A stretch of DNA of 64,000 nt, taken from positions 12,723 through 76,722 of the forward strand of contig CAKPEI010000001.1 of the NCBI GenBank assembly GCA_934149365.1. The letters are read 5' to 3'. The translations under genes were made by a program, and so were the position numbers. The notes under the pieces were generated by a model. The model saw only the letters and a list, made by a program, of their open reading frames with translations. It did no database searches and was not told where the DNA came from. Positions 61,758-61,807 of this stretch are shown here, in pieces (within the stretch, counting starts at the first letter, position 1; each line of letters opens with the position of its first letter). Source of the DNA: an uncultured Clostridia bacterium (lineage in GTDB: Bacteria; Bacillota; Clostridia; TANB77; CAG-465).

Positions 61758-61807
61758 TGGTAGCGACGGTTGGAATCGAACCAACGACCTATCGGGTATG
61801 AACCGCT
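61758..61807 (-). other. truncated tRNA gene: 3' ~50 nt of a tRNA with CAT anticodon (Met/Ile2 type) lacking acceptor 5' strand and D-arm
   Basis: Reverse complement ...CCGATAGGTCGTTGGTTCGATTCCAACCGTCGCTACCA gives the T-arm, acceptor 3' strand, discriminator, CCA and an anticodon loop TTCATAC. Upstream sequence is not tRNA-like. Confidence 0.6.

What the first reader, a model, noticed from the sequence alone, without database searches (positions are those of the whole stretch)
61758..61807. Truncated tRNA(CAT) 3' half: probable attachment-site remnant marking an integrated element extending rightwards
Only the anticodon-arm-to-CCA portion of a tRNA is present, on the minus strand, which is the exact segment duplicated by tRNA-targeting integrases. 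The missing 5' half means the intact gene should lie at the other end of an element occupying higher coordinates. Sequence from 61808 to the window end contains only small hypothetical ORFs, zinc-ribbon and tiny hydrophobic peptides, plus a rho-independent terminator (cacaagt-gaaa-acttgtg) between the fragment and splB.
Basis: partly seen in the sequence, partly recalled or inferred. Interest (0 to 1): 0.55.

Follow-up and report, generated by a model that had tools for sequence, protein, structure and literature searches.

The report
Split tRNA-Met end of mobile island
The tRNA fragment is one end of a 6.9-kb mobile island that cuts a methionine tRNA gene in two, does not repair it, and carries its own complete copy instead; this trick is known from mycobacterial phages and is seen here in a small non-phage island shared by different gut bacteria.

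Summary
Window 61758-61805 (-) is the last 48 nt (anticodon stem to CCA) of an elongator-type tRNA-Met(CAT), followed by that gene's own terminator. It is the right junction (attR) of a 6,911-bp integrated island that runs past the window end. Near-identical contigs show a 406-aa tyrosine integrase and a complete tRNA-Met(CAT) at the far end. Conspecific strains carry the uninterrupted tRNA at the same site.

The two junctions share only 11-13 bp (CGGTTCATACCCG, the anticodon loop). The host gene is not rebuilt: its 5' half is left stranded. The intact tRNA belongs to the island and sits 40 nt downstream of the stranded half.

The same island (99.4-100% identical) splits six different host tRNA-Met genes, in hosts whose DnaG proteins are only 62-67% identical. 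Relatives with 57-66% identical integrases have the same layout.

This matches "tRNA-dependent lysogeny" (Guerrero-Bustamante and Hatfull 2024), known from actinobacteriophages. It differs in three ways:
- The element is a small island without virion genes.
- Its hosts are gut Firmicutes.
- The replacement tRNA lies inside attP, placed to be read from the host tRNA promoter.

That the island tRNA actually compensates for the loss is inferred, not shown.

The parts
61731..61752 (-). Intrinsic terminator of the host tRNA-Met gene (AGCACAAGT-TTTC-ACTTGTGTT followed by a T run). It now follows only the displaced 3' fragment.
   Evidence: Terminator scan, (0.0 expected in shuffles). The same sequence follows the intact tRNA in the empty-site allele L046.
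61758..61792 (-). Host-derived 3' part of tRNA-Met beyond the core: end of the anticodon stem, variable loop, T arm, 3' acceptor strand, ACCA.
   Evidence: Identical to L046 9887-9921 of the intact gene. When rejoined in silico with the stranded 5' half, ARAGORN calls a tRNA-Met.
61793..61805 (-). Common core and crossover region, CGGTTCATACCCG (anticodon loop TTCATAC flanked by CGG/CCG). These 13 bp are repeated at attL in this host. The 11 bp GGTTCATACCC (61794-61804) are shared by all hosts. Anticodon CAT is at 61798-61800.
61806..64000 (.). Right-hand 2.2 kb of the 6,911-bp island (the P-arm side of attP). The island continues about 4.7 kb beyond the window end, to the integrase, the island tRNA-Met and attL.
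   Evidence: This stretch is 99.5-100% identical to the corresponding part of the island in L001-L004, which have unrelated flanks. L006 is 100% identical to the window and continues to the integrase. This DNA is absent from the empty-site strains L046-L048.
61925..61944 (-). Two direct copies of TTGTGCCA, 12 nt apart (61925-61932 and 61937-61944). Candidate arm-type integrase-binding sites of the P arm.
   Evidence: These are the only two copies in the 64-kb window. A matching pair lies at the integrase 3' end on the other arm. The same layout is seen in elements L017 and L022, whose integrases are 57% identical. Binding is inferred.
62055..62285 (+). Island gene, 76 aa, no known family.
62323..62661 (-). 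Island gene, 112 aa, no known family (C-terminal CxxC).
62658..62837 (-). Island gene, 59 aa, HTH_17 / excisionase-family DNA-binding protein.
   Evidence: Pfam PF12728 E=3.7e-7. TIGR01764 scores 28.6 bits, just under its 28.8-bit cutoff.
63187..63852 (-). Island gene, 221 aa: N-terminal zinc ribbon and a hydrophobic C-terminal region. Function unknown.
   Evidence: Pfam PF13240 E=5e-6. No PADLOC match. The exact protein is indexed in 115 blocks of the assembly collection.

Best explanation
Window 61758-61805 is attR of a 6,911-bp integrative island. The island's tyrosine integrase recombines an attP core that mimics the anticodon loop of elongator tRNA-Met (GGTTCATACCC) with the same 11-13 bp in a host tRNA-Met gene.

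Because attP carries no tRNA 3' half, integration splits the host gene. The 5' half plus core stays at attL next to its promoter. The core plus 3' half and terminator is displaced 6.9 kb away; that is the fragment in the window.

The island carries a complete tRNA-Met(CAT) gene inside attP, 40 nt downstream of the core and in the same orientation as the split gene. In the integrated state it therefore sits behind the host tRNA promoter.

Shown: the anatomy, the mobility, the empty site and the conservation of the layout across a family.

Inferred:
- The island tRNA replaces the lost host function.
- It is transcribed from the captured host promoter.
- TTGTGCCA repeats are arm-type integrase sites.
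- Carrying a whole tRNA, rather than a 3' half, is what lets one island use tRNA-Met genes of different genera.
For: (1) L005 has the same context as the window at 99.9% identity, and L006 is 100% identical. Together they show the integrase (406 aa, PF00589 E=2e-34), two HTH_17 proteins and an HTH_3 repressor.

(2) attL in L005 reads: host 5' half GGCGACG...AATC, then GGTTCATACCCG, then a 40-nt non-tRNA spacer, then a complete 77-nt tRNA-Met (Rfam 61.6 bits). The attL hybrid scores only 16.2 bits and ARAGORN finds no tRNA in it.

(3) Empty site: L046, L047 and L048 have flanks 98.6-99.0% identical to L005. They carry an intact tRNA-Met that equals the stranded 5' half plus the window fragment.

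(4) The island is 99.4-100% identical over 6.9 kb in five fully compared contexts, and a sixth was identified from its attR. Each context has a different host tRNA-Met whose two halves are mutually complementary. ARAGORN calls a tRNA-Met in all 10 in-silico rejoined sites.

(5) Host DnaG proteins are only 62-67% identical, and MAG titles include both Clostridia and Bacilli.

(6) Five relatives with 57-66% identical integrases show the same order: split 5' half, core, 28-29 nt spacer, complete tRNA-Met, integrase. attR was found in two of them.

(7) A host promoter TTGACA-17-TATACT lies upstream of the stranded 5' half. No promoter-like site is found in the spacer or on the P arm reading toward the core. 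A 28-nt spacer is too short to hold a sigma-70 promoter.

(8) Experimental precedent for the mechanism exists in PMC10865867.
Against: No expression, aminoacylation or essentiality data exist for the island tRNA. The number of other elongator tRNA-Met genes in these hosts is unknown, so the host may tolerate the loss without compensation; the only other CAT tRNA seen nearby is the initiator.

No excised circular form (attP junction) was found in IMG/VR or among the contigs fetched.

All sequences come from metagenome assemblies. Several contigs break inside the tRNA sequences.

The island has no recognisable transfer, replication or packaging genes, so how it moves between hosts is unexplained.
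Confidence: 0.85

Rival explanations
1. Canonical tRNA-targeted integration. The element supplies a copy of the tRNA 3' half, so the host gene is regenerated at the far end and the fragment is one copy of a direct repeat of about 45 nt.
For: The geometry fits: a displaced 3' fragment with the native terminator, and an integrase plus an intact co-oriented tRNA-Met at the other end.
Against: The repeat is only 11-13 bp. The intact tRNA and the fragment are 77% identical over 53 nt. The host 5' half is found separately, 40 nt upstream of the intact tRNA. The intact tRNA is invariant across six hosts whose own tRNA halves all differ.
Confidence: 0.02
2. The same split-without-repair integration, but the island tRNA is not there to compensate. 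The host has redundant elongator tRNA-Met genes. The island tRNA would serve another purpose, such as evading tRNA-targeting defence or supporting codon usage, or it would be a relic of an ancestral attP.
For: The authors of PMC10865867 raise counter-defence as a possible selective force. Host tRNA-Met copy number is unknown here.
Against: The island tRNA always has the same isotype and anticodon as the disrupted gene. It always lies directly downstream and co-oriented. This holds in relatives with 57-66% identical integrases. It also holds in an independent tRNA-Arg(CCT) case with a different integrase. That pattern is what compensation predicts.
Confidence: 0.1
3. A two-step accident. A canonical island integrated, and a later rearrangement (a second insertion, or a deletion of the regenerated 3' half) left the odd attL. 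The structure would be a dead remnant rather than a strategy.
For: The first bases after the core in attP (TTCGGTC) faintly resemble a tRNA variable region (xxAGGTC), hinting at descent from a canonical attP (inference).
Against: Identical junctions occur in six independent host sites. The empty-site allele corresponds to a precise insertion. The architecture is conserved in diverged relatives. Near-identity of the island across different genera implies that it is currently mobile in this form.
Confidence: 0.02
4. Assembly artefact: metagenome assemblers joined unrelated contigs at conserved tRNA sequence.
For: Several contigs end inside the tRNA sequences: L006 and L051 start inside the island tRNA, and L012 and L013 end at window 61787.
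Against: The shared core is 11-13 bp, which is shorter than assembly k-mers. The same junctions appear in independent assemblies from ENA, Logan and NCBI MAGs. Both flanks of the window's site are contiguous in the empty-site contigs. In every context the two host halves form a valid tRNA when rejoined.
Confidence: 0.01

Closest known systems
tRNA-dependent lysogeny of actinobacteriophages (Fionnbharth, LeBron, Gaia and others; Guerrero-Bustamante and Hatfull, mBio 2024, PMC10865867)
   Same: A tyrosine integrase acts on an attB inside a tRNA gene. The common core is only 8-17 bp (11-13 bp here), so no functional tRNA is rebuilt at either junction. [quoted passage not shown] Putative arm-type sites flank the attP core.
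   Different: This element is a 6.9-kb island with no virion, lysis or recognisable replication genes, not a temperate phage. The hosts are low-GC gut Firmicutes and the target is elongator tRNA-Met. The replacement tRNA lies inside attP, 28-40 nt from the core and co-oriented with the split gene, so it lands behind the host promoter. Fionnbharth's tRNA lies elsewhere in the phage genome and has its own demonstrated promoter. The requirement for the tRNA is untested here. One clone is found in hosts of different genera.
Lactobacillus johnsonii prophage Lj965
   Same: It is a Firmicutes element reported not to rebuild its target tRNA while encoding tRNA genes that could complement the loss. This is as cited in PMC10865867 and PMC3714127.
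   Different: It is a full-size prophage with four tRNA genes. No sequence comparison was made here. The phage collection holds no close relative of this island: DNA matches cover at most about 2% of it, and the best phage integrase match is 34% identical.
Canonical tRNA/tmRNA-gene genomic islands (Williams' anticodon-loop sublocation class; Islander database, PMC4383910)
   Same: A tyrosine integrase acts at a tRNA gene, and a displaced 3' fragment marks the distal island end. Crossover in the 7-nt anticodon loop flanked by the symmetric stem fits the anticodon-loop class (my own knowledge of Williams 2002, not re-read here).
   Different: [quoted passage not shown]
Phage-inducible chromosomal islands and other small phage satellites
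   Same: Small size, and an int / HTH_17 (Xis-like) / HTH_3 repressor module. Relatives L017 and L022 add an AAA_25 ATPase and a KilAC-domain protein.
   Different: No primase-replicase, terminase small subunit or capsid-redirection genes were detected in this island. No helper phage is known. There are no relatives in IMG/VR.

Membership tests
tRNA-dependent lysogeny-type integration (PMC10865867) | A tyrosine integrase recombines attP with an attB that overlaps a host tRNA gene. | tested here: met
   PF00589 E=2e-34. The occupied and empty alleles differ by a precise 6,911-bp insertion inside tRNA-Met.
tRNA-dependent lysogeny-type integration (PMC10865867) | The common core is short (about 10 bp), so no functional tRNA is reconstructed at attL or attR. 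| tested here: met
   The core is 11 bp across hosts and 13 bp in this host. At attL, ARAGORN finds nothing and Rfam gives 16.2 bits. At attR, Rfam gives 15 bits against a threshold of 29.
tRNA-dependent lysogeny-type integration (PMC10865867) | [quoted passage not shown] | tested here: met
   A complete tRNA-Met(CAT) of 77 nt scoring 61.6 bits, invariant in all copies of the island.
tRNA-dependent lysogeny-type integration (PMC10865867) | The element tRNA is required for survival of integrants. | not testable with these tools
   This needs genetics. Host tRNA-Met gene copy number is also unknown.
tRNA-dependent lysogeny-type integration (PMC10865867) | The element is a temperate phage (lysogeny in the strict sense). 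| tested here: not met
   The island has nine genes in 6.9 kb. PHROG matches fall only in the integration/excision, regulation and DNA-binding categories. There is no similarity to phage genomes beyond the tRNA and no close relative in IMG/VR.
Canonical tRNA-gene integrating island | The island carries the tRNA 3' segment, regenerating the target gene and creating a long direct repeat. | tested here: not met
Canonical tRNA-gene integrating island | A displaced 3' tRNA fragment marks the island end distal to the intact tRNA. | tested here: met
   Window 61758-61805.
Phage satellite (PICI-like) | Replication module (primase/replicase) and helper-exploiting packaging genes. | tested here: inconclusive
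   None were found in this island by Pfam, PHROGs or NCBIfam. The 372-aa and 132-aa proteins have no family and no sequence or fold match in PDB. Relatives carry an AAA_25 ATPase.
Integrative mobilizable element | Relaxase and/or oriT. | tested here: inconclusive
   No relaxase family match. oriT cannot be recognised with these tools.
Elongator tRNA-Met (rather than initiator or tRNA-Ile2 with a CAT anticodon) | Lacks the initiator signature (C1-A72 mismatch, three G-C pairs closing the anticodon stem) and lacks tRNA-Ile2 identity elements. | tested here: inconclusive
   The initiator signature is absent. A true initiator (CGCGGG..., GGGCTCATAACCC) lies 4.7 kb away in L046. Telling elongator Met from Ile2 rests on resemblance to Firmicutes elongator tRNA-Met recalled from memory and on ARAGORN's Met call.

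The most novel reading that the evidence does not exclude
Small gut-Firmicutes islands have made "split the tRNA gene and bring a whole replacement" a general docking strategy that frees them from host-specific tRNA sequence. The only requirement is the 11-bp anticodon-loop core, which is near-universal for that isoacceptor. The replacement gene sits inside attP, so it is switched on by the captured host promoter only after integration. This would explain how one 6.9-kb clone sits in tRNA-Met genes of different genera and classes. It would also explain why an unrelated integrase lineage carrying related cargo does the same at tRNA-Arg(CCT).
Probability: 0.45. Interest if true: 0.6.

Novelty: new variant of a known kind. 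Interest (0 to 1): 0.5.

Why it matters
Elements of this kind would have their ends misplaced or would be missed.

The case extends tRNA-dependent integration, shown experimentally only in actinobacteriophages, in two directions: to non-phage islands and to abundant uncultured gut Firmicutes. It also gives natural evidence for an idea the discoverers only raised. Dropping the need to rebuild the tRNA simplifies attB choice. Here, near-identical copies of the island occupy six different tRNA-Met alleles in distinct genera. In at least four of the five contexts examined, a chimeric tRNA would have a mismatched acceptor stem.

An integrase-attP-tRNA cassette of about 1.6 kb with such a conserved target could be a useful integration tool for hard-to-engineer gut Firmicutes. 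The mycobacterial versions were proposed for the same purpose.

Tried and rejected
- The attP (excised circle) junction TATATACAAGCGGTTCATACCCGTTCGGTCTAGTCGAG gave 0 hits in IMG/VR. The 7.4-kb contig L051, which is about island size, turned out to be a sixth integrated copy and not a circle.
- The rejoined attB sequence searched in JGI metagenomes gave 5 hits. They share only the tRNA and have unrelated flanks, so they are not empty sites for this species. The empty site was found instead through variants in the splB protein cluster.
- The look-up of P0121 merely repeated.
- Sister-species loci: L045 has an intact tRNA-Met upstream of splB. L044 has no tRNA there.
- Function of the 372-aa island protein: no Pfam, PHROG, NCBIfam or PADLOC match. 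The PDB sequence search gave only chance hits with E above 0.03. An AlphaFold model (pLDDT 77, all-helical) found nothing in PDB by Foldseek, best E 0.49. It remains unknown.
- The whole island against GenBank phages matched only at the tRNA and short stretches. The best phage integrase match is 34% identical.
- I considered that the conserved TTGTGCC motif near the integrase end might only reflect coding of the conserved integrase C-terminus (NIGTS). That cannot be excluded for the P' copies. The two P-arm copies in the window are non-coding.

Full report
**1. Observation**

The minus strand of window 61758-61807 reads AGCGGTTCATACCCGATAGGTCGTTGGTTCGATTCCAACCGTCGCTACCA. This is an anticodon loop TTCATAC (anticodon CAT), a 3' anticodon stem, a variable loop, a perfect T arm, a 3' acceptor strand and ACCA, with no 5' half.

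- ARAGORN finds four tRNAs in the window but none here. Rfam gives 15 bits against a threshold of 29. The truncation is real.
- Immediately downstream on the minus strand is a terminator at 61752-61731, with 0.0 expected in shuffles.
- The 13-mer CGGTTCATACCCG is unique in the window, with 0 expected by chance.

**2. What lies to the right**

Exact-protein look-ups with the 221-aa zinc-ribbon protein and with splB returned contigs that extend past the window end. L006 is 100% identical to the window over 9.3 kb, and L005 is 99.9% identical over 10 kb. In L005 the gene order beyond the window is:

- an HTH_3 repressor-like gene
- 132-aa and 372-aa genes of unknown function
- an 80-aa HTH_17 (excisionase-like) gene
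- a 406-aa tyrosine integrase
- a terminator hairpin
- a complete tRNA-Met(CAT), co-oriented with the fragment

**3. The junctions are not canonical**

The intact tRNA (L005 3016-3092; Rfam 61.6 bits) is only 77% identical to the fragment over 53 nt.

Forty nucleotides upstream of it lies a separate tRNA 5' half, GGCGACGTAGCTTAGTTGGCTAGAGCAATCGGTTCATACCCG. It runs into non-tRNA sequence (TTCGGTCTAGTCGAG...). This 5' half is the missing partner of the window fragment. Rejoining the two in silico gives a tRNA-Met by ARAGORN, whereas attL alone gives nothing and scores only 16.2 bits in Rfam.

The two junctions share only CGGTTCATACCCG. The layout is:

host promoter – host 5' half – core – 40-nt spacer – island tRNA-Met – terminator – integrase … cargo … – core – host 3' half – host terminator

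Core-to-core length is 6,911 bp.

**4. Mobility and empty site**

Variants in the splB protein cluster led to L046 (a 387-kb contig), L047 and L048. Their flanks are 98.6-99.0% identical to L005 and the window. The DAP-dehydrogenase-like gene and splB are separated only by an intact tRNA-Met, whose sequence equals the stranded 5' half plus the window fragment. A sister species (L045; splB 81% identical) also has the intact tRNA upstream of splB. Insertion polymorphism within the species is therefore shown.

**5. One island, many hosts**

The island occurs in five fully compared genomic contexts (L001-L005) and a sixth identified from its attR (L051). It is 99.4-100% identical over 6.9 kb.

- In each context the left junction carries a different host 5' half and the right junction a different host 3' half. 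The two halves of each site are mutually complementary, and all rejoined sites are valid tRNA-Met genes.
- Everything between the cores, including the spacer and the intact tRNA, is invariant. The intact tRNA is therefore island DNA.
- The minimal core common to all hosts is GGTTCATACCC.
- Host DnaG proteins are 62-67% identical and host flank GC ranges from 22% to 30%.
- GTDB representative MAGs carrying the identical integrase are titled Clostridia (two) and Bacilli (one).
- The host acceptor stems are GGCGATG, GGCGAGA, GGCGAAG, GGCGGTG and GGCGACG. Only one matches the island tRNA (GGCGAGA). A canonical donated 3' half would give mismatched chimeras in most of these hosts (an inference).

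**6. A family trait**

Five loci with 57-66% identical integrases (L017-L020, L022) show the same order: host 5' half, GGTTCATACCCG, a 28-29-nt spacer, a complete tRNA-Met, a terminator, the integrase. attR was found in two of them, giving elements of 6,065 and 6,357 bp. Only int, the HTH_17 gene and the HTH_3 gene are conserved at sequence level. Their cargo includes an AAA_25 ATPase and a KilAC-domain protein.

Tandem TTGTGCCA / TGTGCCAT repeats lie 130-190 bp from the core on both arms, in this island and in the 57%-identical relatives. In the window they are the only two copies, at 61925-61944. They are candidate arm-type sites. If so, the island tRNA gene lies between the core and the P' arm sites, inside attP.

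**7. Expression (inferred)**

A strong promoter-like site (TTGACA-17-TATACT) precedes the stranded host 5' half, and TTGACA/TATAAT-like boxes are visible in the other contexts. No promoter-like site is found in the spacer or on the P arm reading toward the core. A 28-nt spacer cannot hold a sigma-70 promoter. The most economical reading is that integration places the island tRNA behind the host tRNA promoter, with the 5' half and spacer removed as a leader by RNase P.

**8. Comparison with what is known**

The closest match is tRNA-dependent lysogeny (Guerrero-Bustamante and Hatfull 2024, PMC10865867). Its features are a tyrosine integrase, a core of 8-17 bp inside a tRNA gene, no reconstruction of the tRNA, and a phage tRNA of the same isotype that is required for viable lysogens. 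That paper notes it may occur outside actinobacteriophages and cites prophage Lj965 (see also PMC3714127).

This case meets the structural criteria. It differs as follows:
- It is not a phage. It has nine genes and no virion or lysis functions. Its similarity to GenBank phages is limited to the tRNA and short stretches, with the best phage integrase match at 34% identity. It has no close relative in IMG/VR.
- It targets elongator tRNA-Met in gut Firmicutes.
- It keeps its tRNA inside attP and co-oriented with the target. Fionnbharth's tRNA is elsewhere in the genome with its own promoter.

The canonical island model (restoration by island sequence; PMC4383910) fails its defining test.

**9. 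What remains open**

- Whether the island tRNA is needed. Host tRNA-Met copy number is unknown, and the only neighbouring CAT tRNA is the initiator.
- Whether the island still excises. No attP junction was found.
- How it transfers. The 372-aa protein and its 132-aa partner form a small orphan family with no fold match.

**10. Verdict**

The feature is a new variant of a recently described kind. It is of moderate interest, mainly for its non-phage carrier, the attP-embedded tRNA with apparent promoter capture, and the clear cross-genus spread.

Noticed in passing
L054 11040-11256 (-) and 4735-4790 (-); L052 8212-8385 (-): A second split-and-replace case at tRNA-Arg(CCT). The islands carry homologues of the 372-aa/132-aa cargo pair but a different integrase (377 aa). 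The layout is: host 5' half ending ...CCCCTCCTAAG, a spacer of about 55 nt, then a complete island tRNA-Arg(CCT). In L054 the host 3' half (GGAGAGGCCGCAAGTTCGAGTCTTGCTAAATGCGCCA) sits beside the integrase at the other end, and ARAGORN calls no tRNA there. The anticodon stem and T arm of the two host halves are complementary. The 5' half is cut by the contig end.
   Followed up: partly
L046 5076-5151 (conspecific strain, about 4.7 kb beyond the target tRNA; outside the window): An initiator tRNA-fMet (CGCGGG..., GGGCTCATAACCC) lies near the targeted elongator tRNA-Met. Its anticodon loop is CTCATAA, so it lacks the GGTTCATACCC core and is not a target.
   Followed up: partly
window 26164-26405, 37437-38942, 53685-54447: BLAST of L046 against the window shows a dispersed repeat or paralogous gene family with no Pfam domain (products of about 300-400 aa). 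Copies are 76-94% identical at three window sites. One copy is next to tRNA-Glu (37280-37354).
   Followed up: no
L006 start, L051 start, L012/L013 ends (window 61787): Independent assemblies break inside the island tRNA or inside the displaced fragment. tRNA-derived repeats therefore fragment these assemblies and can hide such islands in MAGs.
   Followed up: no
L044 1460-1611: A sister species (splB 86% identical) has no tRNA-Met upstream of splB. A Schlafen/AlbA_2 and HATPase_c_4 gene lies there instead, so this intergenic site is variable between species.
   Followed up: no
L051 6956-7309: In the sixth host context the displaced tRNA-Met 3' half is followed directly by the host tmRNA gene (tag peptide ADNELAYAA).
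   Followed up: no
window 6552-6704 (+): An Rfam L10_leader (60.4 bits) lies upstream of the ribosomal protein L10 operon. This is an ordinary feature.
   Followed up: no
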